IMG/VR virus record: IMGVR_UViG_3300035703_000009
Location: 1 to 64,000 of that record
DNA length: 64,000 nt
Source: a virus
Direction: 5' to 3' (one strand)
Both the position numbers and the translations under genes were made by a program. The notes beneath the pieces are model-generated. The model saw nothing but the letters and a program-made list of their open reading frames with translations. It had not been told where the DNA came from and did not search any database. Shown here piece after piece: positions 36,987-54,883 of the stretch; positions within the stretch are counted from its first letter, which is position 1; the number at the start of each line of letters is the position of its first letter.

Positions 36987-37266
36987 CTATCTTAATGTTG
37001 TTTTCTTCTTTGAACTTTTCCCAAGCAGCCGCATCCATCATGTCTGGAAAGCGTGAGCCTCCATTGCAAGACTCCTTTACATAGATCTTGCCGGGAAAGG
37101 AACATCCGCAATTGATGCAAAATTCATATACGGCACAGTCATTCTTACAGACCTGTGAACGATAAAAGACTTGCTCTTTTTCGTGCTTAGGCAAGAGGTG
37201 GAACTGGTCGCCCAGCATCTTTAGGTTGCCCTCAATGAACTGGTAGATTTTCTTAGGGGTTATCAT
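36964..37266 (-). CDS. Cys-rich hypothetical protein (100 aa)
   Basis: CKNDCAVYEFCINCGCSFPGK cluster. Overlaps its neighbours by a few nt. Confidence 0.35.
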   Translation of the reverse strand: MITPKKIYQFIEGNLKMLGDQFHLLPKHEKEQVFYRSQVCKNDCAVYEFCINCGCSFPGKIYVKESCNGGSRFPDMMDAAAWEKFKEENNIKIDDLLHRH

Positions 37267-38153: not shown

Positions 38154-39184
38154 GAGTTTACTAGAGAGTTTATCCAAGAAAAAGTTTTTTTCATTCCATC
38201 TACTAAAGGCTGGGAGACTTTCCAACCCATTTTTTCTTCATAAAGTTGGTTGTCTGAATTTCTACCTTTGACTCCAATTGGACACTTGAATCCGTACTTT
38301 TTCTTGAATTCTTCGCCTTCTATATTTTCAATAGAGATATTTTTATTTGAGATTAAGATCGCCATTTCAGCAAGTTGATTAATTGTAACCATCTCTTCAG
38401 AACCGATGTTGACAGGTCCTAAGAATCCATCTTGTCTCATGAATCTAAGAACTGCTTCAACACAATCATCAATGTACAAAAAAGAGCGAGTCTGCATACC
38501 GTCTCCCCAAACTTCTATGATACCTCCGCTCTGGGTTTCTGCTACTTTGCGGCACATTGCAGCGGGAGCCTTTTCCTTACCTCCTTTCCAAGTTCCATAG
38601 GGGCCAAATATGTTATGGAACCTGGCAATTCGCACGTCTAGCCCGTAGTTTCTATGAAAAGCTAAATAAAGTCGCTCACTAAAAAGTTTTTCCCAACCGT
38701 ATTCTGAGTCAGGATTTGCTGGATATGCTGATGACTCTTCACAATTTGGGTTATTTGGATCGAGCTGATTGTGCTCTGGGTACATGCACGCAGAAGAGCT
38801 ATAGAAAATCTTCTTTACTGATTTTTTGACGGCTTCATGTGCAACATTTAAGTTTATTAGAGATGAGTTATGCATTACATTAGCATCGTTATTACCTGTA
38901 AAAATATAACCAGCTCCTCCCATGTCAGCAGCAAGTTGATAAACTTCATCGAAAGATTTTTCTCTGTCCCCTTCAAAAGTTTGATTAGGAGATAACATGA
39001 CACAACTTACAAACTTAGGGTCTCTAAGATCACCTAAAATAAACTCATCACAAAAATCATCTTTATCAAAGTACTCATGAACTTTAATGTCAACTGCTCT
39101 GACCCAAAAGCCTTCTTCCTTTAATTTTTTAGCCAGGTGGCCTCCTATGAAGCCTCCTCCACCAAGTACTAGTGCCTTTTTCAT
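38150..39184 (-). CDS. NAD-dependent epimerase/dehydratase (GDP-L-fucose synthase-like extended SDR)
   Basis: LVLGGGGFIGGHL Rossmann motif. YSSSACMYP and VWGDGMQTRSFLYIDD resemble Fcl LGSSCIYP / VWGSGTPMREFLHVDD. Confidence 0.55.
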   Translation of the reverse strand: MKKALVLGGGGFIGGHLAKKLKEEGFWVRAVDIKVHEYFDKDDFCDEFILGDLRDPKFVSCVMLSPNQTFEGDREKSFDEVYQLAADMGGAGYIFTGNNDANVMHNSSLINLNVAHEAVKKSVKKIFYSSSACMYPEHNQLDPNNPNCEESSAYPANPDSEYGWEKLFSERLYLAFHRNYGLDVRIARFHNIFGPYGTWKGGKEKAPAAMCRKVAETQSGGIIEVWGDGMQTRSFLYIDDCVEAVLRFMRQDGFLGPVNIGSEEMVTINQLAEMAILISNKNISIENIEGEEFKKKYGFKCPIGVKGRNSDNQLYEEKMGWKVSQPLVDGMKKTFSWINSLVNS

Positions 39185-39921
39185 AATTTTCTTTTATTTT
39201 TTTCAAAAATTTTGTCTCCTGGAAAGGAGGCTGTATTTATGAATCCTTTTTGAGTTAAGAAAGCCATCATTTCATCTAGTGAATTTCCTGCCTGAACCGT
39301 ATGCTTTTGGTCCCACTCAATTATAAGAGTAAGGTTATTTGCTTTTTCTAAAAAATCGCTCATACCTTTTAATACATTCATCTCAAACCCTTGAACATCA
39401 ATTTTTATTAACCCAATATCGTAACTTGGATTTTCAAGTAAAAACGTGTCTAATTTTTTACAGACAACTTGCTCAGTAATGTAATTTTTAGAATTCATAT
39501 TAGAGATCGCAACCTCTTTGTTAAAGGAAGCATTGTCTGAGCAATAAGGAATGAATATTTCTTGAGTAGTATCAGAATCAAATAGAGCAAAGTTTAGAAT
39601 TTGCATGTTTTTACAAGAGTTTGCACTTTTACTCTGCTCTAACAATGAAACATTCATACTAAGCGGCTCAACTGATAGTACGGAATAACCATATTTTTCA
39701 GCAGGTATTGAAAACATTCCGCAATTTGCACCAACATCTAACACAGACCTAGATTTATCCATTTTTCTTACAAGATTAAGCATCATAGTGTAATCCTTCA
39801 TCTCATTGAGGTTTGTTCTAGCTTTTATTTTATAGTCAGTGACAAAATAGTCAAAATTAAAGATTACGTATTCAAAATTAGCGTTTTTAAAAATAAATCT
39901 TTCAGGTTTAGTAGAAATCAT
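39181..39921 (-). CDS. FkbM-family methyltransferase
   Basis: VLDVGANCGMFSIPAEK...VLSVEP matches the FkbM DVGANxG...EP signature. Confidence 0.5.
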   Translation of the reverse strand: MISTKPERFIFKNANFEYVIFNFDYFVTDYKIKARTNLNEMKDYTMMLNLVRKMDKSRSVLDVGANCGMFSIPAEKYGYSVLSVEPLSMNVSLLEQSKSANSCKNMQILNFALFDSDTTQEIFIPYCSDNASFNKEVAISNMNSKNYITEQVVCKKLDTFLLENPSYDIGLIKIDVQGFEMNVLKGMSDFLEKANNLTLIIEWDQKHTVQAGNSLDEMMAFLTQKGFINTASFPGDKIFEKNKRKL

Positions 39922-39932
39922 GAGCGTTTAGA

Positions 39933-40715
39933 TTATTTGAAGTAAGAATCATAATTAAAATCAGATAACTTATTTGAATAGTAATGAGGTCCTATTATTT
40001 TTAAGAATGCGTTTTGGTCCTTGATTCCACCGTCAGTGTCGCTAGCATTAGTCAACTGATTAGCCATACCGGGAGTAAATGAATAGCAGTTTAACGAAGG
40101 CTCAATTAGTATGAATGAGTGATCTATTGCTCGAGATCGGTGCACACACGCGTCCAGTAACTCTACTATTTTAGGTATTGAACTTGGATTAATTAAATAT
40201 GAGTGGCCGCAAAAAGAACCATATACTCGGTGTATGTACTTGATTCCAGTTAACTCATAATCCCCTCCTTTATTCCAACGACTGGGATCATTGTTTAGAT
40301 GATAAAAAGAAGAAAGGAAAAATATGTCCCAATCTAGGTTAAATTTTTCTTCAATGTACTTAAATCTTTCGTTAAAATCTTCGCAGAGAATGACATCATC
40401 TTCAAATATTCCAAGTATCTTATCACTGCTAGTATCGTATTCTTTAATTAGAGTGTAGTGGGAGCGATAGCATTTTTTCTGTCCTTCAGAAAAGGCTGAA
40501 CTAAATGGTATGCTGCAGCCAGATAAGTCTTCGTACGCTCTAAATTTTTTAGCATCGATGTTATGCTTTTTTAATTCAGAATTAACGTGGGCAAGTCTGT
40601 CTACTCTTCTGTCTAAATTTATGAAATAGAAGTCAATGTTCTTTCTTTCTATTTTTAAGAAGGTTTTTGTGTGAGCCATATACTTATGTATTATTTTTGT
40701 CTTATTTTTATCCAT
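39933..40715 (-). CDS. GT25-family glycosyltransferase
   Basis: FYFINLDRRVDRLAHV N-terminal motif and FEDDVIL, typical of GT25. Confidence 0.5.
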   Translation of the reverse strand: MDKNKTKIIHKYMAHTKTFLKIERKNIDFYFINLDRRVDRLAHVNSELKKHNIDAKKFRAYEDLSGCSIPFSSAFSEGQKKCYRSHYTLIKEYDTSSDKILGIFEDDVILCEDFNERFKYIEEKFNLDWDIFFLSSFYHLNNDPSRWNKGGDYELTGIKYIHRVYGSFCGHSYLINPSSIPKIVELLDACVHRSRAIDHSFILIEPSLNCYSFTPGMANQLTNASDTDGGIKDQNAFLKIIGPHYYSNKLSDFNYDSYFK

Positions 40716-41530
40716 CTTTCTGGAGTCAAAGCATTAGTATCAAAGCTTTGATAGTCTGGTCCAAACCACTCATCTGGATAAGGACAGTAAACAAGCTTAT
40801 CCGTAGATTTTGATAAATATGCAGCCCACCATGAAAAAGTACTGTTTGCAATAATGAAGTGGTCACACAAAGACTGAGCTATGAAGTCACTAATATAATC
40901 ATCGCTATAGTCAAAATAAGTAATAGGTTTTTGATATTTTTCAAATTTTCCAAATATGAATTCTTTAGTATCTTCATTATCAGTAAAGATGCATATTTCA
41001 TCGATGCTTTTTTTAGATAAAATGTCTTCTATACTTCTTTGATAGTATTCTAAAGTAAGAACTGGGTGTCTATGCTCGACACCTTTATGCCCTCCTCCAA
41101 ATTTACGATCATACTGATCACCCCAGCGTATGTGAATCGAAAGTTTCTTTGAGTTCTGATTCATTTTACTATTAACCTTTTCTATAATAGTTGGGTCAAA
41201 GACCAAATACTCAAGTACTTTTTTTTCATAATCATCAAAAAACAAAGAGGACTGAAAATATCCTACTATTTCTACTAATTTATCACTAGTTGGAATATTG
41301 TGGATTCCAAATTTAGATTCCTTATGAGTCAGTGAAATATTTGACTTTATTTTGACAGAGGAACGTGTAGGTAGATTTGGAAAAAGCTTTGCGTGCTCCC
41401 ACTCAGATGGAACAAAAAAGCTACTGTTGTTCTTAATTGCTTGACCAATAATAGTCGCAACTCTAAACAATTGATTGCCAAGGCGTCCATGACGATGGTC
41501 TAATATTTGCAAAGTAGTGAAACCTTTCAT
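40691..41530 (-). CDS. GT11-like alpha-1,2-fucosyltransferase
   Basis: HGRLGNQLF (GGLGNQMFQ-like) and LSIHIRWGDQY (HxRRGDY-like) motifs. Confidence 0.5.
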   Translation of the reverse strand: MKGFTTLQILDHRHGRLGNQLFRVATIIGQAIKNNSSFFVPSEWEHAKLFPNLPTRSSVKIKSNISLTHKESKFGIHNIPTSDKLVEIVGYFQSSLFFDDYEKKVLEYLVFDPTIIEKVNSKMNQNSKKLSIHIRWGDQYDRKFGGGHKGVEHRHPVLTLEYYQRSIEDILSKKSIDEICIFTDNEDTKEFIFGKFEKYQKPITYFDYSDDYISDFIAQSLCDHFIIANSTFSWWAAYLSKSTDKLVYCPYPDEWFGPDYQSFDTNALTPERWIKIRQK

Positions 41531-41546
41531 ATTTAAAAATTGTTTT

Positions 41547-42464
41547 TTATGAGTTTTGTACTACACTAGACTCAATGAGTTTAGACGGAAGCATTATTTT
41601 CGGTTCACTGAAACTTGCACTTTTAAAAAATTTATCATTATAATTGATAGTGTTTCGAGTAAGTGTGTGATGAAAGATTCCATCGTAATAGCTTTGGCTA
41701 TGATATACACTAGCTACATAGCTAAGAGAACTCTTTGACATTATGAATGCATCTGATTTGATTATTCTATCTAGCGTTTTTACAGGGTGCTCATCTAAAT
41801 GAAAAAATACTTTTCCATGCGCATTAAGTTCATTAAAATATTGAAAATCTAAAATGTCACCTTGAGAGTAAATATGAAATTGAATATTTTTATTAGTGGG
41901 CATGATTTCTTTAACGAAGTCAATGGAGCCGTTAGGAATATTGGGGTAATAATATCTACGCCATTCGGAGAAATCAGTGTCCTCGTCAGTAGCTCGTCTA
42001 ACATGAATAGAAATAATGAAATCTGAATTTTCTTCTCTTGGGTATTTTTTAATTAACTCTTCTTGAATATTGTTTAATAGAAAAATGTTATGGTCAGTTA
42101 GTGTCTTTAGATCTGCCCAGTGAAGATTAACTATTGATTTTTCTAAAGAGGAAGGATTATATATTAAAGTGTCTAACAATTCATATACACTCAGCTCTAC
42201 TACAGGAAGCGAATCAGACTCAGTAATCGAGTCTCTTAATAAAAAATCTCGAGTATATTCAAAAAAATGAAGATCCCATTCTTCTTGAGAAAAATTAAAT
42301 TTTTGAATGTGTCCAACGTTTTTCATTGGAGTTAATAAAAAATCAACTCCATAGTGTTTAGCCAATGCATAGCCGCCTAATTGAAGTTGAAAGGCAGAAC
42401 CAAAACCTTCGTTGTGTCCAGGAAGGTATAAATTTGAACAATCTATCTCACATTTTATTATCAT
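41547..42464 (-). CDS. putative glycosyltransferase (GT11-like?)
   Basis: GFGSAFQLQLGGYA and SIHVRRATDED weakly resemble GT11 motifs. Confidence 0.3.
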   Translation of the reverse strand: MIIKCEIDCSNLYLPGHNEGFGSAFQLQLGGYALAKHYGVDFLLTPMKNVGHIQKFNFSQEEWDLHFFEYTRDFLLRDSITESDSLPVVELSVYELLDTLIYNPSSLEKSIVNLHWADLKTLTDHNIFLLNNIQEELIKKYPREENSDFIISIHVRRATDEDTDFSEWRRYYYPNIPNGSIDFVKEIMPTNKNIQFHIYSQGDILDFQYFNELNAHGKVFFHLDEHPVKTLDRIIKSDAFIMSKSSLSYVASVYHSQSYYDGIFHHTLTRNTINYNDKFFKSASFSEPKIMLPSKLIESSVVQNS

Positions 42465-43171
42465 TACATTCCTCCAGTAAAATTTGAAAAATCTTTATTT
42501 AAAATTATATTATTCTGAAAACGAAGATTTCCATCAAAAGTTTGATAAAAAGTAAAATTTTGAGTTTTCATAAAATCTAATATTTCTTCTCTAGAAGAAG
42601 CATTTTCATACTGATATCGACAATCGTCTTCCATGTCCAAAAATTGAACTCTACGCAAATGTGGACCTAAACTCTTTGTAATATCTAAATCTTTTCCTTG
42701 AGCATCTATTTTTATTAATTCGATGTGTTCATATACTAGTGAGTCCAATAACATCTTAAGAGAAAAGGTTTCCACGTCAATTTCGCAATCTATTTCACAC
42801 TCTGGAATATTTTGCAATTTTGGAGTCAATAGACTAGAACAGCCAACATTTCCACTAAGAAGGTAAAATTTACTTTCACGTAAGGTGTCAACATTATCAC
42901 AAGCACCAATTATATGATAATAGTTTTCTTTTTGTTCATTTTCTTTAAATACATCTAATATGTTCCAGGTTTTTCCATCCCACTCATTTATTCCATCCAA
43001 ACAATAAGGATTAGGTTCGATTCCAATTACAAAAATATTTTTGACATTAGAGAACCACTGACGTGTGACTGGAGCGCTTATTGACGTGCCTATGTCAAAT
43101 CGCAATTTTTTATTTTTTAACTTTGAATTTAGTAATTTAAAATCACAATTTGAAAATTTACTAAAATTCAT
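42464..43171 (-). CDS. FkbM-like methyltransferase (divergent)
   Basis: RFDIGTSISAPV...VIGIEPNP pattern. Confidence 0.35.
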   Translation of the reverse strand: MNFSKFSNCDFKLLNSKLKNKKLRFDIGTSISAPVTRQWFSNVKNIFVIGIEPNPYCLDGINEWDGKTWNILDVFKENEQKENYYHIIGACDNVDTLRESKFYLLSGNVGCSSLLTPKLQNIPECEIDCEIDVETFSLKMLLDSLVYEHIELIKIDAQGKDLDITKSLGPHLRRVQFLDMEDDCRYQYENASSREEILDFMKTQNFTFYQTFDGNLRFQNNIILNKDFSNFTGGM

Positions 43172-43809
43172 TTTGTAAAAATATAATTTTCTCCATCAAA
43201 AACTTCTTTTTCAAAATATCCTATTGACTCCAAGTAATTTTTAGCATCTTGAATAGTATGACCTCGCTTTTCAAGAGCGTGATTGAGCTCTATGATAATT
43301 AAAGGAGACTGCTCTCTTAAAAACTTTTCACCGCCTAAGAGCACTTCATAATCATAGGAGTCAACATCAATTTTTATTAAGTCTATTTTTTTTCCAATTT
43401 GTTCAACAAAAGAATTTAGAGTTATGAAATCATGTTCGCGATCATCAGTTATACCTTGAGACCAAACTTTAAAAATTTTATCTAGTTTAAGGCCATCTTC
43501 TTTTCCAAGAGGTCTATTAATTAGAATTACGTTCTCTTTACAGTCATTGTATGCCAAGTTTTTCTCTAACATATCGACAATATCAGTAGGTTCAAATGCA
43601 TAAACTGTTCCTTTTGATGCAAGTTTAGAAAAAGGAATTGTGTACATTCCTATGTTTGCACCTGCGTCTATGATATTAAATTCAGGCTTTACGTAAGAAT
43701 GTATAAACTTTTTAGTGGAAATCTCAGCAGAAGAAAACCAGCCGGCGTCACATTCGTTATATGATGGAAAAGAATATGAAATTTCTGAAGTATATTGAAT
43801 TGAGATCAT
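43168..43809 (-). CDS. FkbM-family methyltransferase
   Basis: NIIDAGANIGMYTIP...VYAFEPT signature. Confidence 0.5.
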   Translation of the reverse strand: MISIQYTSEISYSFPSYNECDAGWFSSAEISTKKFIHSYVKPEFNIIDAGANIGMYTIPFSKLASKGTVYAFEPTDIVDMLEKNLAYNDCKENVILINRPLGKEDGLKLDKIFKVWSQGITDDREHDFITLNSFVEQIGKKIDLIKIDVDSYDYEVLLGGEKFLREQSPLIIIELNHALEKRGHTIQDAKNYLESIGYFEKEVFDGENYIFTK

Positions 43810-44366
43810 AGTTGTGGGGTTATGTAAGCTACACCGCTATTTGTGAGGCTAGACGTGCTAAAGGTTACAGTATAATTAAGTTTTCCATAAATTTCATCTA
43901 GCGAGTTGTTCACGTAGCTCAAATTAAGAGGTTGGCCTCGATAGATATCGTATCCGAACTTAGGATTTTCATTTTCATCAGGAACAAAAAAATCATGAAT
44001 AGCAATAACTGGGATTATTTGCTTTTTTTTAATCTCAAAAAGTTCATCTAAAAGAGGCCAGTACTCTTCCCAATGCGCATCTAAAAAGAAAAAAGTATTT
44101 GAAGTTAAGGATTTGCTGCGTATAATTTCTGGGCTATTTCCTAAAATTAGCTCACAATTTGTAATCTCTTTTAAAGTCTGTTCAGCTATCTTGTAGTTTT
44201 GCAAATCATTTTCTACTGTAAAAACCTTGGAAAAATACGGCGCAACTATCCTGGCAGATTCTCCAAGATAAGATCCAGTTTCAAAAAAAACATCTATTTT
44301 GTATTTTTTGGATAAGTTAATAGTCCACTCTAATAGTTGAGGATCTGAATACGCAGGTCTAGTCAT
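43806..44366 (-). CDS. TylF/MycF-like class I SAM-dependent O-methyltransferase
   Basis: FFETGSYLGESARIVA resembles ETGVFRGGS. A D..H motif (FLDAHW) lies downstream. Confidence 0.4.
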   Translation of the reverse strand: MTRPAYSDPQLLEWTINLSKKYKIDVFFETGSYLGESARIVAPYFSKVFTVENDLQNYKIAEQTLKEITNCELILGNSPEIIRSKSLTSNTFFFLDAHWEEYWPLLDELFEIKKKQIIPVIAIHDFFVPDENENPKFGYDIYRGQPLNLSYVNNSLDEIYGKLNYTVTFSTSSLTNSGVAYITPQL

Positions 44367-44376
44367 CGTAGTTCAT

Positions 44377-45138
44377 TTATTTTTTAAACACTGGGATGTT
44401 TTGCATCTTGTGTGAATTTTGAGTGTTAAAACTTCGGTAAATCCCTATTACTTCTTTTTCTCTAGCTGAAAGCTTGTCCAGATCAGCGGCAGTAAAATAA
44501 GGATTTTTTTCTAAAAACTGCATAGCCCATTCAAGTTCAGCATAGGAAGCACCTATTTGATCTTCATCGCTTCGTCCGTCTTCCCAGAGTCCATCAGTTG
44601 GTTTTGCTTTAATAATTGATCTAGATATTCCCAAATCTTCCCCTAGCTCCCATACCTCAGTTTTTAATAAATCAGCAATAGGGCTAATATCTACTCCTCC
44701 ATCTCCATATTTTGTAAAGAAACCGACTCCAAAGTCTTCTACTTTGTTGCCTGTTCCAACAACCAGCCCATGATTCTCAGTAGCGATTTGATAGAGAGTC
44801 ATCATTCTGAGTCTTGACCTAGAGTTAGCCAACGCAAGTTTGTTATCTTTTGTAAACAACGACTTAAAATTTTCAAAAACTTGGGTAAGATTCAACTCAA
44901 TTGATTCAACATTTGAGAAGTTGCTCTTTAACCAAGAAATGTGTTCATCTGCTCTAGTTAACTGATCTGGCGCTTGATGAATAGGCATGCTTACAACAAT
45001 GGTTTTTATTCCGGTCATTGCACAAAGAGTAGAAACAACGGCAGAGTCTATTCCTCCAGAAACTCCTATAATAAATGTTTTAAGATTAGCCGATTTTAAA
45101 TAATCATTCAACCACTTTGAAATTTGTTGTTGTAACAT
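44377..45138 (-). CDS. nadE: NH3-dependent NAD+ synthetase
   Basis: FIIGVSGGIDSAV PP-loop. GFFTKYGDGGVDISPI is nearly identical to E. coli NadE GFFTKYGDGGTDINPL. 253 aa. Confidence 0.8.
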   Translation of the reverse strand: MLQQQISKWLNDYLKSANLKTFIIGVSGGIDSAVVSTLCAMTGIKTIVVSMPIHQAPDQLTRADEHISWLKSNFSNVESIELNLTQVFENFKSLFTKDNKLALANSRSRLRMMTLYQIATENHGLVVGTGNKVEDFGVGFFTKYGDGGVDISPIADLLKTEVWELGEDLGISRSIIKAKPTDGLWEDGRSDEDQIGASYAELEWAMQFLEKNPYFTAADLDKLSAREKEVIGIYRSFNTQNSHKMQNIPVFKK

Positions 45139-46204
45139 TCTTGATTTGATTTTTTACTTCTTCTCGATTATCTAATACTAACACTTCATATCCAAGTTCT
45201 GCTAAAGCTACTGCGTATTTTAGCTGTTGAGACTCCTCAATTAAGGTACTTTCTGCCTTATATGTAACGTATGGTAACTCTACTTTAATTGATTTATCGG
45301 GATTAGCTTTAATAAAGTCCTCGATTTGATATTGTAAATGTTTTTCATTCATTTCATCGGTTGCTTTAGAGATTACTGCATCGATTCCTACTTCTTCGCC
45401 ACACTTAGCTAGTGCTCTATTATCCCTAGGAAAACAGGGACCTCCGAATCCAAAACCAGGTCTTAAATATTTGTTTCCAATTCTTGAGTCAGTTCCGATC
45501 GCCTTTAAAACGACATCTGCATTGCACTCTAGTCTTTTTGCAATATCGCCGACCATGTTTGCAAAACTGATCTTGGTTGTCAAAAAGCAGTTTACTGAAA
45601 GTTTAGTCAATTCAGCTTCGGTGCAGCTCATCCTATTAAAAATTGGGCTAGAATCACACAGTCTTTCGTAAACTTGCTGTATACGATTGCCTGCATCAAG
45701 GTCAGCTTGCCCAATCAATACGTTATCACAATTTAGTTGATCTTTAATGATTGTGCCTTGTGCTATAAATTCTGGATTATAGGAGACTTTATAATTGTAT
45801 TCAGATAGCTTATTTTGAAGAGTCTCGCAATATCCAGGAAAGGTGGTACAATTTATTATTAAGTCTTTTCTTGTTTCTTGTTTTCCAAAAGAGATTAGCT
45901 TTTCTGCAATCTGCTCTATTTGTGAATGGTCATATTTCCAATCGTTAGTTGAAGGAGTTCTGACCACAACAAAAATGAGATTACTCTCTAGCGCTCTTTC
46001 CAAATTAGTTGTAAATTCTACATTTTTAGATTCAATCAAAAATTCATTTACGTATGGTTCTGATGTTCGAAAAGACTTTGAAGAAAGAGCATCTATGTAA
46101 TCTTGAGAAACATCTACGCCTAGTACAAAATATCCTTTTCTCTCTAAATTTAAAGCTAAACATAAGCCAAGTTTACCTACTCCGATTATCGAAATTTTGT
46201 TCAT
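45104..46204 (-). CDS. nucleotide-sugar 6-dehydrogenase (UDP-glucose/UDP-ManNAc dehydrogenase family)
   Basis: ISIIGVGKLG N-terminal Rossmann motif. GFGFGGPCFPRD contains the catalytic Cys motif. Confidence 0.75.
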   Translation of the reverse strand: MNKISIIGVGKLGLCLALNLERKGYFVLGVDVSQDYIDALSSKSFRTSEPYVNEFLIESKNVEFTTNLERALESNLIFVVVRTPSTNDWKYDHSQIEQIAEKLISFGKQETRKDLIINCTTFPGYCETLQNKLSEYNYKVSYNPEFIAQGTIIKDQLNCDNVLIGQADLDAGNRIQQVYERLCDSSPIFNRMSCTEAELTKLSVNCFLTTKISFANMVGDIAKRLECNADVVLKAIGTDSRIGNKYLRPGFGFGGPCFPRDNRALAKCGEEVGIDAVISKATDEMNEKHLQYQIEDFIKANPDKSIKVELPYVTYKAESTLIEESQQLKYAVALAELGYEVLVLDNREEVKNQIKNVTTTNFKVVE

Positions 46205-46868
46205 TTTTTACCATTTTTTGATTATTTATCGTTTTTTTAGTTAAGTGCTTAGTATTTTTGATAAAACGATCTATTATGAAATCGTAATTTACTTCTTTTT
46301 TTTCTATGTCGCTATGTCCTGGAATCTGAATAGCAGCTAACGGATAGCTACCGAAACACTCAAACTTACTTTGAACATTTTTTGCGAGCCATACATCAAT
46401 TATTTCGATGTTATTATTTTCAAAAGCATGCAATATAAAGTCAAATATTGTAGAATTATACGCTATTGCGTGTGCAGCATAACAGTTAGTTATTTTTAAG
46501 AGGTTTGGGCTCACTTGACTAAGTGAGGAATGACTATTATATCCAAGGTAATAGAGAGCCCAATGAGTCCTCTGTAGCTGATCTATCGCAGGAGGAATAA
46601 AGTTAATATTCATTAGTTCAAAGTCATCTTCGAAGACCAAAACATTTTTTAAGCCTAATGCTTTTGCTCTTTTGATTGTTTCTATGTGAGAAAGTAGACA
46701 GCCTTGACGACCGTTGCCGTCTGGAGGAACTATGCCTGAGAGTCTCTCAACGCGATCAGCTATTCCTAGCTGGTTAAAAATAGTCAACGCTCTAGCTAAG
46801 CGATCTGGTCTAGAATCTAAATTAATTAAGTAAATCTTTTGAAAATAATTAAATGCTTCCTTTATCAT
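46173..46868 (-). CDS. GT25-family glycosyltransferase
   Basis: IYLINLDSRPDRL and VFEDDFEL motifs. Confidence 0.5.
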   Translation of the reverse strand: MIKEAFNYFQKIYLINLDSRPDRLARALTIFNQLGIADRVERLSGIVPPDGNGRQGCLLSHIETIKRAKALGLKNVLVFEDDFELMNINFIPPAIDQLQRTHWALYYLGYNSHSSLSQVSPNLLKITNCYAAHAIAYNSTIFDFILHAFENNNIEIIDVWLAKNVQSKFECFGSYPLAAIQIPGHSDIEKKEVNYDFIIDRFIKNTKHLTKKTINNQKMVKNEQNFDNRSR

Positions 46869-47482
46869 GCGTCAATTTTACCCAGATGACAAACAACGTA
46901 ATCTGGAGTATCTATTTTATAGTGTTTTTCCTTTAAGATATGACTAATACTGGTCCAATCATGGCCATATCCGTCCGCCCATTGAAATGAGCAAGCACGA
47001 CGGTGGCAAATTGAACTTGTACCGATCCTATTTGCCTTGGGCTCGACCGTCCTTTTCCATTTTTTTTCTCCATTAAAGATATAATCGTCATAGTAACACC
47101 AAACATACTCTGAATCTTTAAAGCCACTAAGTATCTCAAGGTGTGTACTTCCAAAATAATCATCACTGTCTAAATAGCACACAATCTCGCCTGTGGATTG
47201 AGTTAAACCGGCTTGCCTAACTGTTCCGCTAAATAAGGGTTGTTTTGGAAGTTCAATCAAACGCACAGCTGAAAAATTAGAGTATTTTTCTCGAGTTATT
47301 TTTGAAGTTTTTTCGCAGCCGTCACTCACAATTATGAGCTCAGCACTCTTAAAAGTCTGGTCCAAAAAAGAATTTACTGCGCGTCTAAATTTGAACTCAC
47401 GATTTGAGGCAGCTTCAAACCCTCCACTAGTGTAGTGATCTAAATATGAAGCCATGATTACAGTTATCCTTGGAGAATTCAT
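46865..47482 (-). CDS. GT2-family glycosyltransferase
   Basis: ITVIMASY...IIVSDGC and YLDSDDYF (DxD) motifs. Confidence 0.5.
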   Translation of the reverse strand: MNSPRITVIMASYLDHYTSGGFEAASNREFKFRRAVNSFLDQTFKSAELIIVSDGCEKTSKITREKYSNFSAVRLIELPKQPLFSGTVRQAGLTQSTGEIVCYLDSDDYFGSTHLEILSGFKDSEYVWCYYDDYIFNGEKKWKRTVEPKANRIGTSSICHRRACSFQWADGYGHDWTSISHILKEKHYKIDTPDYVVCHLGKIDA

Positions 47483-48195
47483 GACAGTTCGTTGATTTTT
47501 AAAAAAGTTGGCTTAAAAGCACATAGATCAAAACATACATCCAGCTTTCCATGAGAAAAACCCATCTTTTTATACTCAGAAACATCACGATTTGAGATCC
47601 CAGGAATCCTAGGAGTTATTCCTTGAAAATGTATTATTGGAGAACTAGTAATGATTGCAAAATTCCATCCTTTTCTATAGAGCATATCATATAGGTAATC
47701 ATCTCCGCAAAAAAAGTGCAGATTTCTTGGAATTTGAGAGTATGCGGACCTACGCATGGTAAAGTCCCAACCTTGACGGTACTTACCATGAAAAATTCGA
47801 TATTCAAGTTGTGTACAAGACTGATAATTTGGGTGATTTGTTGAGTGAGCAACGCAGCCTACTCGCGGTTCTCTTTCAAAGACGTCAAGAGTGTCCTTAA
47901 TGAAATTTTTTGGAATTATTAGGTCGTTATTTAAAAAACAGCACAACTCATAATTATTTTTAAGAGCAAAATCGTTCCACACGTGGTTTAGTGGACGATT
48001 TTGTCCTGTATATTCTATCTTCTTTAAAAAGGAAAAAGAAAGTTGATCTAGGGACTCTCTAGTGCCGGGCTCAGTAGACCCATTATCGACGACTGTCAAC
48101 TCGAAATCCAGGCAACTCTGAACCGACAGTTGCGTAATTAGATCAATTGTATACTTTATATGATTTCTGTTAATTATTATTACGCCTAATTTCAT
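47479..48195 (-). CDS. GT2-family glycosyltransferase
   Basis: LGVIIINRN...LTVVDNGS N-terminal GT-A signature. Confidence 0.5.
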   Translation of the reverse strand: MKLGVIIINRNHIKYTIDLITQLSVQSCLDFELTVVDNGSTEPGTRESLDQLSFSFLKKIEYTGQNRPLNHVWNDFALKNNYELCCFLNNDLIIPKNFIKDTLDVFEREPRVGCVAHSTNHPNYQSCTQLEYRIFHGKYRQGWDFTMRRSAYSQIPRNLHFFCGDDYLYDMLYRKGWNFAIITSSPIIHFQGITPRIPGISNRDVSEYKKMGFSHGKLDVCFDLCAFKPTFLKINELS

Positions 48196-49052
48196 AAAGA
48201 ATCGTATATTTTAGTAAATTCGTTTACTATTGTTTGAGGATGCCAGTGTTGTTCCATCCAACTCCTACTTTCCTTTCCTTTTTCAAGAATAAAATCAAGA
48301 CCGGCATCGACTATTTTGTTTAGTTCCGTCTCAAGGGAATTGATCCAAACGTTGAAAAAAGGAGAAACTTGAGCACCAGAGGAAGAGAGTAGTATTTTTT
48401 CAACGTCTGGAGAAAGAGAGCATATTGTGAGTTTGCCAAGTGCAAGTCCTTCTAAACCTGATCTATGATAGCTTGAAGTAACGCACTCATCTATAATTAT
48501 GTTGCATTTTGATTTGCGAGCAATACAAGCATCAAGAGAGACTCCAGTTATCACATCAATTTCTACAGAGGTGCCATACTCTCTTTTAATCTTGTTAAGT
48601 ACTGCAAGAGTCTGATCATATCCCTTATCGTGCCACTTACCGAGTTTTTTTGTTCGGCTTGGAGAAAAACCTATTTTAATTGCATGTGAAACCTGCTGAG
48701 AAGAATATTGCGGAGTTGTGAAGTCAATCACATTTCTAACTATTGAGCAGCCTGAATACTCTGGCAGAGTTGCATGATATTGAGAAATTACTAACTTGCG
48801 GTCAACTCGGCTTTTTAGGTCTACTTGAAAAGGTTCGCTATGGTATTGCAAAACAGTTTTGATCCCATGCCGATTGCCAGGTAAGAGATTATGAGCATGT
48901 AGAATACTACCTGCTGGGAAGGCACGCATAGCCGGTGCACCTAATCCTGCCATCTCGCATCGATAGCCTTGACCGAATTTATTGATGGCTTTAGCTAATT
49001 CTAAAGGAGCTTGAGCAATAGGTGTTTGTCTATAGTGATAAACTATTTTCAT
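48192..49052 (-). CDS. hypothetical protein (286 aa), possible glycosyltransferase
   Basis: Embedded in the glycosyltransferase run. No motif recognised. Confidence 0.3.
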   Translation of the reverse strand: MKIVYHYRQTPIAQAPLELAKAINKFGQGYRCEMAGLGAPAMRAFPAGSILHAHNLLPGNRHGIKTVLQYHSEPFQVDLKSRVDRKLVISQYHATLPEYSGCSIVRNVIDFTTPQYSSQQVSHAIKIGFSPSRTKKLGKWHDKGYDQTLAVLNKIKREYGTSVEIDVITGVSLDACIARKSKCNIIIDECVTSSYHRSGLEGLALGKLTICSLSPDVEKILLSSSGAQVSPFFNVWINSLETELNKIVDAGLDFILEKGKESRSWMEQHWHPQTIVNEFTKIYDSL

Positions 49053-49055
49053 TAT

Positions 49056-50513
49056 TTACTTTTTTTTTAATATTCCTGGTTCGCCTTTTTCAAATTTACA
49101 AGTAAGATACTTTAACTCTAACAAGTAATTATGCACACTAGAAATATTCTTATCTGAATTTGATCTAAATATTGAATTTAATCCGTTTGTGTAGCCGTTA
49201 AAACCAAACAGGGACAGTGAATAGTGCGGAATCTTTAACTCCTCTAATAACAAAATCATGCTAAGTCCACTAGTTGGAAGAAGATAGCTTTTTTTTAAAG
49301 CGGCAGATATAGAAATTAGAGCAGGGTAGTGGTAGTTTAGTATTTTCTTGCTAGGATAACTAGCACAAATGTCACTGACTGCTTTGTGCCAAAGATCAAT
49401 AGGTTTTGAGAAAACTATCAAATAATCTGAGGGTTGGTCTAAATTAAATCTAGCCTGCCGAAATATGCAGTGAACGCTTGTTTTAGTGCCGGTGTGAGTA
49501 GGTTCGATTGGATAACCGTTGAATCTAATAACTACATCATGTGAATCAATTAGTTCTCCATGTTGGTGTTCTAAAAGTTCTGAAGAATTTGCGATTATTG
49601 CTATTTTTTTGCCAGTTAAATACTCTTTGAATGAACTTAATGAAGTTAACTTAGATTTAAGTAAAAATCTGTTTTCAGAAGATCTATTCAGTGTAATTGG
49701 TATTGAACTATTTTGCTGTTTTACATGAGGAATCGGCCTAGGTTGTTCTTCGGCATTTATAGTTTGTCTATCAGAATTAAAAGAACTCGGCTGGACTAAA
49801 AATTGGCTACTTTCTTTGTTTTTAAAAAGCCACACTTGATTGATTTTAGAATATTGAGCTGAGTTGTTTAGAGTTGTGAAAAGAATTACATCTTTAGACT
49901 CTAAGGAAGCTCGCATAGTTATAAATTTAGAGTCTAAGTATTCATTTGAAAAAGAAATGTTAGCTTCAGAATAAAAACTAGGATTTAGACAAGAATTCAA
50001 GTGATTATTTAGTTGTAAATCTAACGAATTGGAAGTTAACATTCTATTTGAGAGTTCATGGTAAACTTCTTCAGATAATGATATTTTTTCACTTAGGTGA
50101 AAAAAGAGAACTGAATTGAGCGCTTTGCCTAACTTATTTTCAGATATGAAATTACAGCTTTTTTGAAAAATTGAATAGTTAGAAAAGTATAGTAAACTTT
50201 CGTTTTCTGTAGATTCATTAAATACTGTCCATTTTAGAGCAGAGTTCACCAGTTCAAAATATTGCACTCGTCCCTTATATTTGTCTATTACACTAAAAAT
50301 AGGATGCGACGTTTGTAATTTTATTGCGAGCTTTGGATAAATTTTAAGAAGAATGTCATAATTCCTAGTGGATAATTGATCCATAGGATGATCGAGTAGG
50401 TTAATTGTACCAGTAAACCATGGATTGTTTTTTATAAAAGAAAAAATACTGGTTCTAAGTAGGTGAAAATTTTTGTTAGTGGCCTCAGTATACGCATTAA
50501 CTATCTTATCCAT
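49056..50513 (-). CDS. two-domain protein with C-terminal GT29-like (eukaryotic-type) sialyltransferase domain
   Basis: KKIAIIANSSELLEHQHGELIDSHDVVIRFNGYPIEPTHTGTKTSVHCIF matches sialylmotif L (C.VVGNSG.L..S..G..ID.HD.V.R.N.AP....DVG.KT). LPTSGLSMILLLEE...FGF matches motif S, and HNYLLE matches motif VS (Hx4E). The N-terminal 280 aa are unassigned. Confidence 0.55.
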   Translation of the reverse strand: MDKIVNAYTEATNKNFHLLRTSIFSFIKNNPWFTGTINLLDHPMDQLSTRNYDILLKIYPKLAIKLQTSHPIFSVIDKYKGRVQYFELVNSALKWTVFNESTENESLLYFSNYSIFQKSCNFISENKLGKALNSVLFFHLSEKISLSEEVYHELSNRMLTSNSLDLQLNNHLNSCLNPSFYSEANISFSNEYLDSKFITMRASLESKDVILFTTLNNSAQYSKINQVWLFKNKESSQFLVQPSSFNSDRQTINAEEQPRPIPHVKQQNSSIPITLNRSSENRFLLKSKLTSLSSFKEYLTGKKIAIIANSSELLEHQHGELIDSHDVVIRFNGYPIEPTHTGTKTSVHCIFRQARFNLDQPSDYLIVFSKPIDLWHKAVSDICASYPSKKILNYHYPALISISAALKKSYLLPTSGLSMILLLEELKIPHYSLSLFGFNGYTNGLNSIFRSNSDKNISSVHNYLLELKYLTCKFEKGEPGILKKK

Positions 50514-51151
50514 TTTACTTGATCTAAGTCTTTTTGAGTGTCGACGTCAACTACATCTTCGATCGGGTAGAACACGGTAGACGGGCCGTACATATTCTTA
50601 TTTAATTTATAGAGAGCAGAAGCTCTAAAGATGCACATGTAGTGACTGATCTCAAAGCACTTTGGATAGTCTTGGCGTCGGTATAGATCGTGTTCAAGTA
50701 AAGGCTTGCCGAAAACGCCGTCTGCTCCATGCTCCTGTAACATGAGATAAGGTGAGACTTTAAGTTCCTTCTTACATAGCATAGAATCAGCAAGACCTAA
50801 GTCAGCAAACTGACAGTAATATTCATAAGCCGCGTAAATCTCTTTCCAGGTCCTCTCTGGATAGGTTAAGTAGAGCATTATTACTTCAGCAGACATGGGA
50901 AGCCCGACGTTTTTTACGGCGTGTTGCATCACGTCCCGAATGTTAGCAGAGTCGTCTGATAGTTCAGAAGGACGATCGATTGCACAACACCCATGCTTAA
51001 TGGCTAACTGAAATATCTCAGGGTCGTCGGTCGTCACAAAAACACGTCTACGAAGAGACTCTGGAATCGAGTCTATTGTCGCTTTAAAAAGCTTACGGTT
51101 CTTAAAGGGTAGGCCCTTGGAACCCAGTCTGGCTGGAATGATGATGTTCAT
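50501..51151 (-). CDS. neuA: CMP-nonulosonic acid synthetase (NeuA-like acylneuraminate cytidylyltransferase)
   Basis: MNIIIPARLGSKGLPFKNRKLF matches NeuA/KdsB IIPARGGSKGIxxKN. Confidence 0.75.
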   Translation of the reverse strand: MNIIIPARLGSKGLPFKNRKLFKATIDSIPESLRRRVFVTTDDPEIFQLAIKHGCCAIDRPSELSDDSANIRDVMQHAVKNVGLPMSAEVIMLYLTYPERTWKEIYAAYEYYCQFADLGLADSMLCKKELKVSPYLMLQEHGADGVFGKPLLEHDLYRRQDYPKCFEISHYMCIFRASALYKLNKNMYGPSTVFYPIEDVVDVDTQKDLDQVKWIR

Positions 51152-51765: not shown

Positions 51766-51830
51766 TTAGATAAATTATTTTAAAACCTAGTCTTCAATTT
51801 TTATACAAGATCAGGAACATAAGTTTTAAA

Positions 51831-52826: not shown

Positions 52827-52850
52827 CTTAAAAAATCTCCCAAAAGCCTT

Positions 52851-52867: not shown

Positions 52868-52876
52868 TTTAAGGCT

Positions 52877-54856: not shown

Positions 54857-54883
54857 TCAAAAACTAAAAAAATCAACTCAAAA

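What the first reader, a model, noticed from the sequence alone, without database searches (positions are those of the whole stretch)
44377..45138. Bona fide NAD+ synthetase (NadE) encoded inside the phage glycan island
The GFFTKYGDGGVDISPI and SGGIDS motifs make this a canonical NadE rather than a PseA-like sugar amidotransferase. A phage NAD+ synthetase could sustain NAD+ during infection or counter NAD+-depleting abortive-infection systems (Thoeris, DSR, SIR2/TIR effectors). It could also act jointly with the NMNAT-like domain at 24386-26296. Its placement among sugar genes is unexplained.
Basis: partly seen in the sequence, partly recalled or inferred. Interest (0 to 1): 0.6.

Follow-up and report, generated by a model that had tools for sequence, protein, structure and literature searches.

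The report
Phage NAD synthetase paired with sugar dehydrogenase
This phage gene looks like an ordinary, working NAD+ synthetase of a kind already annotated in marine phages, but in viruses (and not in cells) it almost always sits right next to a sugar-oxidising enzyme that consumes NAD+, and that pairing has not been explained.

Summary
The ORF at 44377-45138 (minus strand, 253 aa) is real and is a single-domain, ammonia-type NAD+ synthetase (NadE) by every test available here. It passes the Pfam and TIGRFAM cut-offs. The PP-loop, Mg2+ ligands and deamido-NAD-site residues are all conserved. The AlphaFold model matches solved NadE structures at TM 0.8-0.86. It scores the same as housekeeping NadE of Flavobacteriia and is 52% identical to Neisseria NadE. 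I found no sign of a changed substrate pocket. The family is already annotated in cyanophages and a pelagiphage (phrog_11189), so the gene itself is not new.

Its placement among sugar genes is not random. In 70 of 96 viral loci (26 of 37 lineages), NadE lies within 5 kb of a UDP-glucose/GDP-mannose-dehydrogenase-family gene, usually with overlapping stop and start codons. In 0 of 80 cellular loci does it do so. The pairing survives changes of gene order and swaps between deeply diverged dehydrogenase lineages.

Best reading: a genuine NadE kept as a module with an NAD+-consuming nucleotide-sugar dehydrogenase. Rivals are uronate amidation, NMN synthetase activity and anti-defence NAD+ replenishment, all less supported. 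The "NMNAT-like" ORF is a nucleotidyltransferase-fold domain that cannot be told apart from PPAT.

The parts
44377..45138 (-). nadE: single-domain, NH3-type NAD+ synthetase, 253 aa. PP-loop S27-S32; Mg2+ ligands D31 and E134; signature G139-I154; C-terminal H243-K244.
   Evidence: (phrog_11189, 289 bits).
45104..46204 (-). UDP-glucose/GDP-mannose dehydrogenase-family nucleotide-sugar 6-dehydrogenase, 366 aa. Catalytic Cys in GFGGPCFPRD. The C-terminal domain is shortened. Its stop lies 35 nt inside the nadE start, so the two ORFs overlap. This is the conserved partner of nadE in viruses.
   Evidence: PF03721 and PF00984; TIGR03026, 242.8 bits against a cut-off of 189.8; 3vtf, E = 3e-40, aligned to residues 23-373 of 444.
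43806..44366 (-). 186-aa ORF immediately downstream of nadE (10-nt gap), with no family hit. Homologs occupy the same position in some related islands. It contains an ETGSYLGES motif that, by eye, resembles motif I of SAM-dependent methyltransferases.
   Evidence: no hits; homolog in 5 viral and 2 metagenome loci; the methyltransferase-like motif is my reading of the sequence and was not tested.
37263..51765 (-). Glycan island, one minus-strand block: NeuB, SDR epimerase/dehydratase, three FkbM-type methyltransferases, two GT25, GT11, two GT2, a GT29-like transferase, a CMP-type cytidylyltransferase, several unknowns, and the UGDH-nadE pair.
   Evidence: low G+C.
24386..26296 (+). The N-terminus gives a weak RNA-ligase-like signal. 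The C-terminus is a cytidylyltransferase-like (PF01467) nucleotidyltransferase domain. A link to nadE is not established.

Best explanation
The gene encodes a genuine single-domain, ammonia-dependent NAD+ synthetase. It should adenylate the nicotinate carboxylate of deamido-NAD (NaAD) with ATP/Mg2+ at a PP-loop site and then amidate it with free NH3 to give NAD+. It descends from housekeeping cellular nadE and has kept that enzyme's active site unchanged.

In viruses it is maintained as a two-gene module with a nucleotide-sugar 6-dehydrogenase of the UGDH family. That is the one step in sugar-nucleotide synthesis that turns over free NAD+ (two per sugar oxidised). The island's SDR epimerase/dehydratases also need NAD+, as a bound cofactor.

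The most likely role is therefore to raise NAD+ supply for phage-directed glycan synthesis, and for infection generally, using ammonia. This would be independent of the host's own last-step enzyme. In cyanobacteria and other bacteria that carry the glutamine-dependent form, that enzyme is feedback-inhibited by NAD+ and controlled by PII.

Shown: enzyme family, fold, intact catalytic and NaAD-site residues, the virus-specific linkage to UGDH, and operon-like overlap. Inferred: the actual substrate, the NAD+-supply rationale and escape from host regulation.
For: Family and fold:
- PF02540 at 4e-50 and TIGR00552 at 176 bits against a cut-off of 63.65.
- AlphaFold model pLDDT 87.5. The top 50 PDB matches are all NAD(+)/NMN synthetases, with TM 0.80-0.86 for the best matches and rmsd 2.3 A to B. 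subtilis 1nsy.

Active site:
- B. subtilis/E. coli positions Y32, N133, R137, Y144, F167, T169, K170, D173, D177, H257, K258, plus S46/G47/G48/D50/S51, R139, T157, E162 and K186, map to identical residues in the window protein.
- Each of these positions is invariant in all 80 cellular, all 71 UGDH-linked viral and all 26 other viral sequences. The only exceptions are two gapped viral sequences at the Y32 column and one ambiguous X in a cellular sequence at the D173 column.
- The reference sequence was verified against 1ee1.

No divergence from housekeeping enzymes:
- 72 of the 90 columns that are >=95% conserved in cellular NadE carry the same residue in the UGDH-linked viral proteins. A few of those 72 are shared-gap columns.
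- The only virus-specific conserved column is Q117, at a position that varies among cellular enzymes.
- Viral and cellular proteins score alike on all NCBIfam NadE models.

Cellular relatives are housekeeping genes:
- Their neighbours are GldB (21 cases), aminoacyl-tRNA synthetases, PolA and primase.
- Neisseria NadE is 52% identical.

Coupling to UGDH:
- UGDH lies within 5 kb in 58 of 80 IMG/VR loci, 4 of 4 isolate phages and 0 of 80 cellular loci.
- With UGDH as bait, 58 of 80 viral loci carry NadE and 51 abut it.
- 26 of 37 viral NadE lineages are linked. There are three deep UGDH lineages, both gene orders occur, and partners have been swapped (window against L021: NadE 68%, UGDH 28%).

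Literature:
- Phage nadE within complete NAD pathways exists elsewhere (PMC11662467).
- Glutamine-dependent NadE is feedback-inhibited by NAD+ and PII-controlled (PMC7196632).
Against: - General NAD+ supply is a weak reason for such tight, repeatedly re-created adjacency. UGDH reduces NAD+ to NADH rather than destroying it, and NadE cannot correct a redox imbalance.
- No other NAD-pathway gene (nadD, pncB, NAMPT) was seen in the window, so the enzyme depends entirely on host NaAD.
- The functional roles of the mapped residues come from my memory of the B. subtilis and E. coli structural papers, which were not held.
- The full-length equivalog models NF010587 and NF001979 are not reached (185 against 255 bits), although the same holds for the cellular orthologs.
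- Two single-instance in-frame fusions of NadE to glycan-island domains (L040 to a GT47-like domain, L025 to an unknown domain) hint at closer physical involvement in glycan synthesis.
Confidence: 0.62

Rival explanations
1. Neofunctionalised sugar amidotransferase. The partner dehydrogenase oxidises C6 of a nucleotide sugar to a carboxylate. The NadE-like enzyme then adenylates that carboxylate and amidates it with ammonia, producing a uronamide sugar (such as GlcAN or GalNAcAN) for the phage-specified glycan. It would take the place of the AsnB-type enzymes (WbpS, WbtH) that do this in bacterial O-antigen pathways.
For: - The chemistry fits: alcohol to carboxylate to carboxamide, with the two genes overlapping.
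- The linkage is virus-specific, reciprocal and re-created across gene orders and UGDH lineages, as expected if NadE's benefit depends on UGDH.
- Occasional in-frame fusion to glycan enzymes.
- The GT47-NadE-UGDH trio in megaphage LR756502.
- No other amidotransferase family was hit by two or more of the 114 neighbours of NadE-less UGDH loci.
Against: - Every residue mapped to the nicotinate and adenylyl halves of the NaAD site is invariant in the viral clade.
- There are no systematic substitutions relative to housekeeping NadE apart from Q117.
- Viral NadEs not linked to UGDH carry the same residues and sit in DNA-metabolism or chaperonin contexts.
- NadE stays 55-68% identical while its UGDH partner drops to 24-28%, so NadE does not co-vary with its supposed substrate supplier.
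- I found no precedent for a NadE-fold enzyme acting on sugars.
Confidence: 0.15
2. NMN synthetase of the Francisella type. The enzyme would prefer NaMN over NaAD and make NMN. A phage NMN adenylyltransferase, possibly the C-terminal domain of ORF 24386-26296, would then convert NMN to NAD+, giving the phage a two-step terminal route.
For: - The nearest solved relative by both sequence and fold is 3fiu, 'NMN synthetase from Francisella tularensis'.
- Francisella pairs this enzyme with NadM in place of NadD (PMC3376133).
- The window encodes a PF01467 nucleotidyltransferase domain with a GxFxPxTxGH motif. Its nearest folds include NMNAT and Francisella NadM.
Against: - 3fiu leads by only a small margin over ordinary NAD synthetases such as H. 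pylori, P. horikoshii and B. subtilis.
- The residues mapped to the adenylyl half of NaAD (Y116, H243, K244) are invariant.
- The closest cellular relatives are housekeeping NadE of many phyla.
- The nucleotidyltransferase domain is equally close to PPAT, lies 18 kb away and is fused to an unrelated N-terminal domain.
Confidence: 0.07
3. Counter-defence as the primary role. The phage NadE would restore NAD+ after Thoeris, DSR or SIR2/TIR effectors deplete it.
For: - NAD+ depletion is a common abortive-infection mechanism, and phages are known to rebuild NAD+ (bioRxiv 10.1101/2024.02.11.579819, listed and read).
- Any increase in NAD+ synthesis could help marginally.
Against: - NADase effectors yield ADP-ribose and nicotinamide (abstract listed). 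NadE acts only on NaAD, three host steps downstream of nicotinamide.
- The NARP preprint does not mention NadE, NAD synthetase, deamido-NAD or nicotinic acid at all.
- The window shows no NAMPT, NMNAT, Adps or Namat-type family.
- The conserved genomic partner is a sugar dehydrogenase inside a glycan island, not an anti-defence locus.
Confidence: 0.06
4. No functional link. NadE and UGDH would be neighbours only because they were acquired and passed on together as a cassette in a hypervariable island.
For: - Phage hypervariable regions collect unrelated auxiliary genes (PMC7029224).
- NadE and UGDH divergence are positively correlated overall (Spearman 0.47), as expected for some co-inheritance.
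Against: - Adjacency persists across 26 NadE lineages down to 45% identity, three deep UGDH lineages and both gene orders, with clear partner swaps.
- It is found in unrelated phage groups: Kyanoviridae, a 642-kb megaphage, and this T4-like phage whose A1-like protein is closest to Flavobacteriia phages.
- It is never seen in cells.
Confidence: 0.08

Closest known systems
Single-domain NH3-dependent NAD+ synthetase (NadE, EC 6.3.1.5; PF02540/TIGR00552), the short ~250-aa subfamily found in Flavobacteriia, Neisseria, archaea, H. pylori and P. horikoshii
   Same: Same length and domain organisation, with no glutaminase domain. Same PP-loop, Mg2+ ligands, GFFTKYGDGG signature and C-terminal HK motif. 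Same fold (TM 0.8-0.86). 52-62% identity to chromosomal nadE genes.
   Different: It is encoded by a virus inside a glycan island and is translationally overlapped with a nucleotide-sugar dehydrogenase, a context never seen in the 80 cellular loci examined. It carries the virus-specific Q117.
Phage 'NAD synthetase' auxiliary gene of marine myoviruses (phrog_11189; annotated in Pelagibacter phage HTVC008M, Synechococcus phages S-SSM7, S-SSM6a, Bellamy, S-SCSM2R and Sf-FS3, and Prochlorococcus phage P-TIM68)
   Same: 51-56% identity over the full length. In every one of these genomes the gene lies in a sugar-gene cluster beside or near a UGDH-family gene.
   Different: The gene order is reversed: UGDH is upstream of nadE here, whereas nadE is upstream of UGDH in those phages. 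The UGDH is of another sublineage than in HTVC008M and Bellamy (24-25% identity). The host phage is not a Kyanoviridae member by its A1-like protein.
Francisella tularensis NadE* (NMN synthetase, PDB 3fiu)
   Same: Best sequence and structure match among solved proteins (E = 4.9e-34; TM 0.81/0.86; 31% identity).
   Different: The lead over ordinary NAD synthetases is marginal. The Francisella enzyme works with NadM in the absence of NadD (PMC3376133). Neither a preference for NaMN nor a bona fide NadM partner could be established here.
pncB-nadD-nadE clusters of gut jumbo phages (PMC11662467)
   Same: These are phage-encoded NadE genes presumed to raise NAD+ during infection.
   Different: There nadE sits with the other Preiss-Handler genes. 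Here it stands alone with a sugar dehydrogenase, and no other NAD gene was detected.
AsnB-type uronate amidotransferases of O-antigen pathways (WbpS in P. aeruginosa O6, WbtH in Francisella; named from my own knowledge)
   Same: They belong to the PP-loop superfamily, use carboxylate adenylation followed by amidation, and have genes located next to a nucleotide-sugar 6-dehydrogenase.
   Different: They belong to a different family (asparagine synthase B-like, glutamine-dependent). The window protein has no similarity to them beyond the PP-loop and retains the NaAD site.

Membership tests
NH3-dependent NAD+ synthetase (NadE) | Score above the curated cut-offs of the family models (PF02540, TIGR00552) | tested here: met
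   PF02540: 170.6 bits against 21. TIGR00552: 176.4 bits against 63.65.
NH3-dependent NAD+ synthetase (NadE) | Score above the cut-off of a full-length equivalog model (NF010587 PRK13980, NF001979 PRK00768) | tested here: not met
   185.2 against 255 bits and 113 against 250 bits. Housekeeping orthologs from Tamlana, Arenibacter, Polaribacter and an archaeon fall equally short at 174-182 bits. The shortfall therefore reflects model coverage of this subfamily, not divergence of the viral protein.
NH3-dependent NAD+ synthetase (NadE) | PP-loop ATP-pyrophosphatase motif SGGxDS and the Mg2+ ligands (B. subtilis D50, E162) | tested here: met
   S27-G-G-I-D31-S32 and E134 are present, and these positions are invariant in all groups.
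NH3-dependent NAD+ synthetase (NadE) | Conservation of the deamido-NAD-site residues (B. subtilis Y32, N133, R137, Y144, F167, T169, K170, D173, D177, H257, K258) | tested here: met
   All map to identical residues (Y13, N105, R109, Y116, F140, T142, K143, D146, D150, H243, K244) and are conserved in all 71 UGDH-linked viral sequences, apart from two gapped sequences at the Y13 column. The assignment of these residues to the NaAD site is from memory of the structural literature. The numbering was verified against 1ee1.
NH3-dependent NAD+ synthetase (NadE) | NadE fold | tested here: met
   Model pLDDT 87.5. The top 50 PDB matches are all NAD/NMN synthetases. TM is 0.82 and rmsd 2.3 A to 1nsy.
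NH3-dependent NAD+ synthetase (NadE) | Single synthetase domain with no fused or adjacent nitrilase-type glutaminase | tested here: met
   The protein is 253 aa with only PF02540. No CN_hydrolase family was found among the island neighbours.
NH3-dependent NAD+ synthetase (NadE) | Catalysis of NaAD + ATP + NH3 to NAD+ + AMP + PPi; homodimer with the NaAD site at the interface | not testable with these tools
   This needs an enzyme assay or complementation. Only a monomer model was made.
Francisella-type NMN synthetase | Preference for NaMN over NaAD; co-occurrence with a NadM-type NMNAT that replaces NadD | tested here: inconclusive
   3fiu is the nearest solved relative, but only marginally. 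The candidate nucleotidyltransferase domain (24386-26296, C-terminus) is equally near NMNAT, NadM, NadD and PPAT. Substrate preference is not testable here.
Sugar amidotransferases (PseA/WbpG-type, or AsnB-type WbpS/WbtH) | Homology to those families | tested here: not met
   Only NadE models and weak generic PP-loop families (MnmA, QueC, GuaA, LarE) were hit.
Sugar amidotransferases (PseA/WbpG-type, or AsnB-type WbpS/WbtH) | Gene embedded in a glycan cluster next to the enzyme that makes the carboxylate | tested here: met
   The gene overlaps the UGDH-family gene, and the pairing is conserved in viruses. This supports 'works with sugar genes', not membership of those families.
Phage NAD+ reconstitution pathways (NARP1/NARP2) | Presence of the pathway enzymes (Adps + Namat, or Nampt + Nmnat) | tested here: not met
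   The NARP preprint does not mention NadE. No such family appeared among the Pfam hits listed for the window. One search showed only the 25 strongest of 34 families, so weak hits cannot be excluded.

The most novel reading that the evidence does not exclude
The NadE-UGDH pair could be a two-enzyme device for making uronamide sugars in virus-specified glycans. One version has NadE directly adenylating and amidating the uronate made by its partner. The other version reconciles the intact NaAD site with the tight coupling. In it, the dehydrogenase's Cys-thioester intermediate is resolved by ammonia taken from the carboxamide of its bound NAD+, which leaves NaAD, and the bona fide NadE re-amidates that NaAD. 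NAD+ would thus act as an ammonia carrier. A similar idea has been floated for NAD-binding terminal amidation domains that have a neighbouring NAD synthetase gene (bioRxiv 10.1101/2024.10.28.620694).
Probability: 0.15. Interest if true: 0.75.

Novelty: new member of a known kind. Interest (0 to 1): 0.4.

Why it matters
The gene itself is an ordinary member of an already annotated phage auxiliary gene family. What I did not find discussed in the held literature is the rule behind its odd location. Across cyanophages, a pelagiphage, a 642-kb megaphage and this T4-like phage, NadE is kept next to a UGDH-family dehydrogenase, and this never happens in cells.

If the link is NAD+ supply, viral glycan synthesis would be limited by NAD+ in infected cells, which are often very small. 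Viruses would then be bypassing the host's regulated last step of NAD+ synthesis. If instead the pair makes uronamide sugars, that would be a new activity for the NadE fold and a new route to amidated sugars. Either outcome can be tested directly with two recombinant proteins from cultured phages.

Tried and rejected
- **Nucleotide match.** Megablast of the locus against isolate phages found nothing, so the window is a new phage at the nucleotide level.
- **Residue roles from the literature.** I looked for published lists of NaAD-contact residues. Sorci 2009 and Rizzi 1996 are not held, and a residue-name search found nothing relevant. The only structural paper held describes the two-domain enzymes. 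I therefore mapped residues from a B. subtilis sequence recalled from memory and verified against the PDB.
- **Pocket change in the viral enzyme.** I looked for one and rejected it. Only G21 and T35 differ from Bacteroidota-type cellular enzymes. G124, V127 and K252 are shared with sister cellular NadEs. Only Q117 is virus-specific.
- **Replacement by an AsnB-like amidotransferase in UGDH islands without NadE.** No such family was hit by two or more of 114 neighbours.
- **NadE paralogs in polysaccharide loci on plasmids.** The hits listed were ordinary nadE genes.
- **NCBIfam cut-offs as a way to separate viral from cellular proteins.** They do not separate them.
- **NMNAT identity of ORF 24386-26296.** There was no PDB or PHROG sequence hit, and the fold comparison is ambiguous between NMNAT/NadD and PPAT.
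- **NadE fusions as Rosetta stones.** They are real ORFs, but each was seen once and each involves a neighbouring island gene, so I count them as weak evidence only.
Full report
**Observation.** It contains SGGIDS (residues 27-32) and GFFTKYGDGGVDISPI (139-154). It matches Pfam NAD_synthase at E = 4.2e-50 over nearly its whole length. It matches TIGR00552 nadE at 176 bits against a cut-off of 63.65. By sequence it hits 20 solved NAD synthetases, the best being 3fiu at 4.9e-34. There was no hit to PseA/WbpG-type or AsnB-type sugar amidotransferases. An identical protein is on record from a JGI metagenome (P0001).

**Surroundings.** The gene lies in a minus-strand block at 37263-51765.
- The block encodes NeuB, an SDR epimerase/dehydratase, three FkbM-type methyltransferases, GT25, GT11, GT2 and GT29-like transferases, and a cytidylyltransferase.
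- Immediately upstream of nadE, and overlapping its start by 35 nt, is a 366-aa UDP-glucose/GDP-mannose dehydrogenase-family protein at 45104-46204.
- That protein passes TIGR03026 (243 bits against a cut-off of 190) and has the catalytic cysteine motif GFGGPCFPRD. It aligns only to residues 23-373 of a 444-aa UGDH, so its C-terminal domain is shortened.
- The block has lower G+C than its flanks.
- The rest of the window shows a T4-like myovirus: gp20 portal, gp23 capsid, topoisomerase II, PhoH and a family-B polymerase.
- The phage's A1-like DNA-transfer protein is closest to those of Maribacter and Flavobacterium phages.
- No nucleotide-level relative exists among isolate phages.

**Is it a real NadE?** Four lines of evidence agree.
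1. *Fold.* A model with pLDDT 87.5 finds only NAD or NMN synthetases among its top 50 PDB matches. TM-scores are 0.80-0.86 for the best matches, and rmsd to B. subtilis NadE is 2.3 A.
2. *Active site.* I aligned the protein with E. coli NadE (fetched) and with B. subtilis NadE. The B. subtilis sequence was recalled from memory and then shown to be identical to PDB 1ee1.
   - PP-loop, Mg2+ and ATP-site positions: S46, G47, G48, D50, S51, R139, T157, E162 and K186.
   - Positions I remember from the structural literature as lining the deamido-NAD site: Y32, N133, R137, Y144, F167, T169, K170, D173, D177, H257 and K258.
   - All are identical in the window protein. All are conserved in all 80 cellular, 71 UGDH-linked viral and 26 other viral sequences, apart from two gapped viral sequences at the Y32 column and one ambiguous residue at the D173 column.
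3. *Relatives.* The closest cellular homologs (52-62% identical) are chromosomal nadE genes of Flavobacteriia and other Bacteroidota, Desulfobacterota, Marinimicrobia and MGII archaea.
   - Their neighbours are GldB (21 cases), aminoacyl-tRNA synthetases, DNA polymerase I and primase. These are housekeeping contexts with no sugar genes.
   - Neisseria NadE is 52% identical.
4. *No divergence.* Of 90 columns that are >=95% conserved in the cellular set, 72 carry the same residue in the UGDH-linked viral set, a few of them shared-gap columns.
   - The few apparently viral-specific positions (G124, V127, K252) are shared with the sister cellular enzymes.
   - Only Q117 is virus-specific, at a position where cells vary freely.
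   - Viral and cellular proteins score alike on every NCBIfam NadE model. Both fall short of the full-length equivalog cut-offs, so that shortfall says nothing about the viral protein.

**Is it new?** No. PHROGs has the family as phrog_11189 'NAD synthetase' (289 bits). Homologs 51-56% identical are annotated as NAD synthetase in Pelagibacter phage HTVC008M, Synechococcus phages S-SSM7, S-SSM6a, Bellamy, S-SCSM2R and Sf-FS3, and Prochlorococcus phage P-TIM68. Reviews list NAD synthetase among cyanophage auxiliary genes (PMC10452541; PMC7238727).

- In all four isolate phages I inspected, the gene sits in a sugar cluster beside or near a UGDH-family gene.
- I fetched 80 IMG/VR loci and 80 cellular-genome loci using a NadE alignment as bait. 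I then searched their ORFs with the window's island proteins.
- A UGDH-family gene lies within 5 kb in 58 of 80 viral loci, mostly abutting with a 4-nt overlap. It does so in 0 of 80 cellular loci.
- Counting all viral, reference-phage and metagenome loci, 70 of 96 are linked, 12 are unlinked with adequate flanks and 14 are too short to judge.
- With the UGDH-like protein as bait, 58 of 80 viral loci carry NadE and 51 abut it. A further 19 with full flanks lack it, several of them giant-virus MAGs.
- Among isolate and single-virus records, every marine phage with this UGDH has NadE next to it, and the reverse holds. This includes the 642-kb megaphage LR756502.
- The linkage is not a single inherited accident. 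Of 37 viral NadE lineages at 70% identity, 26 are linked. The partners fall into three deep UGDH lineages, and both major ones occur upstream and downstream of nadE.
- Closely related NadEs can have very different partners. For the window against L021, NadE is 68% identical, UGDH is 28% identical and the gene order is opposite. The distant partners are still UGDH-family enzymes.
- A minority of viral NadEs sit elsewhere, among DNA-metabolism genes or chaperonins.

**Weighing the explanations.**
- *What each line of evidence favours.* Context alone would favour a direct biochemical hand-off: the dehydrogenase makes a carboxylate and a PP-loop enzyme amidates it. Sequence evidence argues against this.
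   - The nicotinate-stacking tyrosine, the adenylyl-pocket residues and the C-terminal His-Lys are all invariant.
   - The viral enzymes cannot be told apart from housekeeping ones.
   - NadEs not linked to UGDH carry the same residues.
   - NadE does not co-vary with UGDH lineage.
- *Best reading.* I therefore favour a genuine NaAD-to-NAD+ synthetase kept with the one sugar-nucleotide enzyme that turns over free NAD+. The island's SDR enzymes also bind NAD+ as a cofactor.
- *Possible rationale.* A single-domain ammonia-dependent enzyme would also be independent of the glutamine-dependent host enzyme. That enzyme is feedback-inhibited by NAD+ and PII-controlled in diverse bacteria; the study also cloned the Synechocystis enzyme (PMC7196632). 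This rationale is inference. It is the weakest part of the account, because UGDH reduces NAD+ rather than consuming it.
- *Uronate amidation.* It keeps about 0.15. It gains a little from two single-instance in-frame fusions of NadE to island domains. One is an exostosin/GT47-like transferase, which in LR756502 is a separate gene just upstream of NadE-UGDH.
- *A speculative variant.* It would reconcile both kinds of evidence. The amide of NAD+ would be donated to the dehydrogenase's thioester intermediate, and NadE would recycle the resulting NaAD. This parallels an idea raised for terminal amidation domains that have adjacent NAD synthetase genes.
The NARP preprint does not mention NadE. No other NAD-pathway gene was detected in the window. 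The conserved partner is a sugar gene.
- *Phage nadE inside complete Preiss-Handler clusters.* This does exist, but in gut jumbo phages (PMC11662467).

**The 'NMNAT-like' ORF (24386-26296).**
- Pfam gives borderline hits to RNA_ligase (N-terminus) and CTP_transf_like (21.1 bits against a cut-off of 21, residues 439-481).
- The sequence there reads IGSFQPVTMGH, a variant of the nucleotidyltransferase HxGH motif.
- Only 21 homologs exist in the large protein database, most carrying PF01467.
- A model of the C-terminal domain (pLDDT 79) is equally close to NadD, archaeal NMNAT, NadM and PPAT, at E about 1e-6 and 12-20% identity.
- It could be an NMN or NaMN adenylyltransferase, which would give the phage the last two steps of NAD+ synthesis. 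That cannot be decided here, and the gene is 18 kb from nadE.

**Verdict.** The defence and NMNAT extensions are unsupported or undecidable. The gene is a new member of a known phage auxiliary family. The virus-specific NadE-UGDH module is a modestly interesting observation that I did not find discussed in the held literature. Two recombinant proteins would be enough to test it.

Noticed in passing
window 24386-26296 (+): A 636-aa fusion protein. The N-terminus gives a weak RNA-ligase-like signal. The C-terminus is a PF01467 nucleotidyltransferase domain (IGSFQPVTMGH) whose model is equally close to NadD, NMNAT, NadM and PPAT. Only 21 homologs exist among 5.8 billion proteins, and there is no PHROG or PDB sequence match.
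   Followed up: partly
window 37263-38225, 49056-50513, 50501-51151 (all -): NeuB, a GT29 (sialyltransferase)-like protein and a CMP-type cytidylyltransferase lie in the same island. This looks like a phage-encoded nonulosonic-acid (sialic-acid-like) synthesis and transfer route.
   Followed up: no
window 45104-46204 (-): The UGDH-family protein and its viral relatives (about 360-390 aa) lack roughly the last 70 residues of the C-terminal nucleotide-sugar-binding domain of canonical UGDH (444 aa in 3vtf). The substrate is unknown.
   Followed up: partly
L040:4020-5786; LR756502.1 454626-457454: In one IMG/VR contig an exostosin/GT47-like glycosyltransferase domain is fused in frame to NadE. 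The domain is related to 8q8i/8avq 'A075L' at E = 2.5e-26. In megaphage LR756502 the same three functions (GT47-like, NadE, UGDH) are separate adjacent genes.
   Followed up: partly
L025:4121-5674: NadE is fused to a ~270-aa C-terminal domain of unknown function. The only weak similarity is to a hypothetical protein of Synechococcus phage S-SKS1.
   Followed up: partly
L237:4992-6932: In a giant-virus MAG contig the UGDH-family protein is fused to a C-terminal domain that looks by eye like a SAM-dependent methyltransferase. Several NadE-less UGDH loci come from giant-virus MAGs.
   Followed up: no
window residue Q117 of the NadE (codon within 44377-45138): Q117 is the only NadE alignment column that is conserved in viruses (86% of UGDH-linked and 81% of other viral proteins) and absent from all 80 cellular homologs. 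It lies next to Y116, the equivalent of B. subtilis Y144.
   Followed up: partly
window 38000-50000: The glycan island has G+C of 0.31-0.36, against 0.40-0.47 in the rest of the window. This suggests acquisition from, or exchange with, a lower-GC gene pool.
   Followed up: no
window 51831-52826 (+): A full-length DnaJ homolog (DnaJ and DnaJ_C domains) lies directly beside the island, just upstream of the prohead protease gene.
   Followed up: no
window, outside 36000-54900 (members not located): A bulk Pfam scan reported single hits to cREC_REC (cyclic-phosphate processing receiver), Tn7 TnsA-like endonuclease N-terminus, UspA1 adhesin repeats, an ice-binding-like beta-roll, DUF4326 and an HD_4 domain. 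I did not determine which ORFs carry them.
   Followed up: no
L002:3623-4057 (P-TIM68 record 152334-152768): P-TIM68 carries a second, 144-aa gene annotated 'putative NAD synthetase' next to NdhP. It is far too short for NadE. Annotations like this may inflate published counts of 'NAD synthetase' in cyanophages.
   Followed up: no
L007-L010 (contigs carrying P0081): A widespread viral NadE (seen on 34 contigs, 65% identical to the window protein) sits among a 5'-3' exonuclease, an ERCC4 nuclease, a ferredoxin and two DNA methyltransferases. No UGDH lies within 7 kb. This shows the gene is also kept outside glycan islands.
   Followed up: partly
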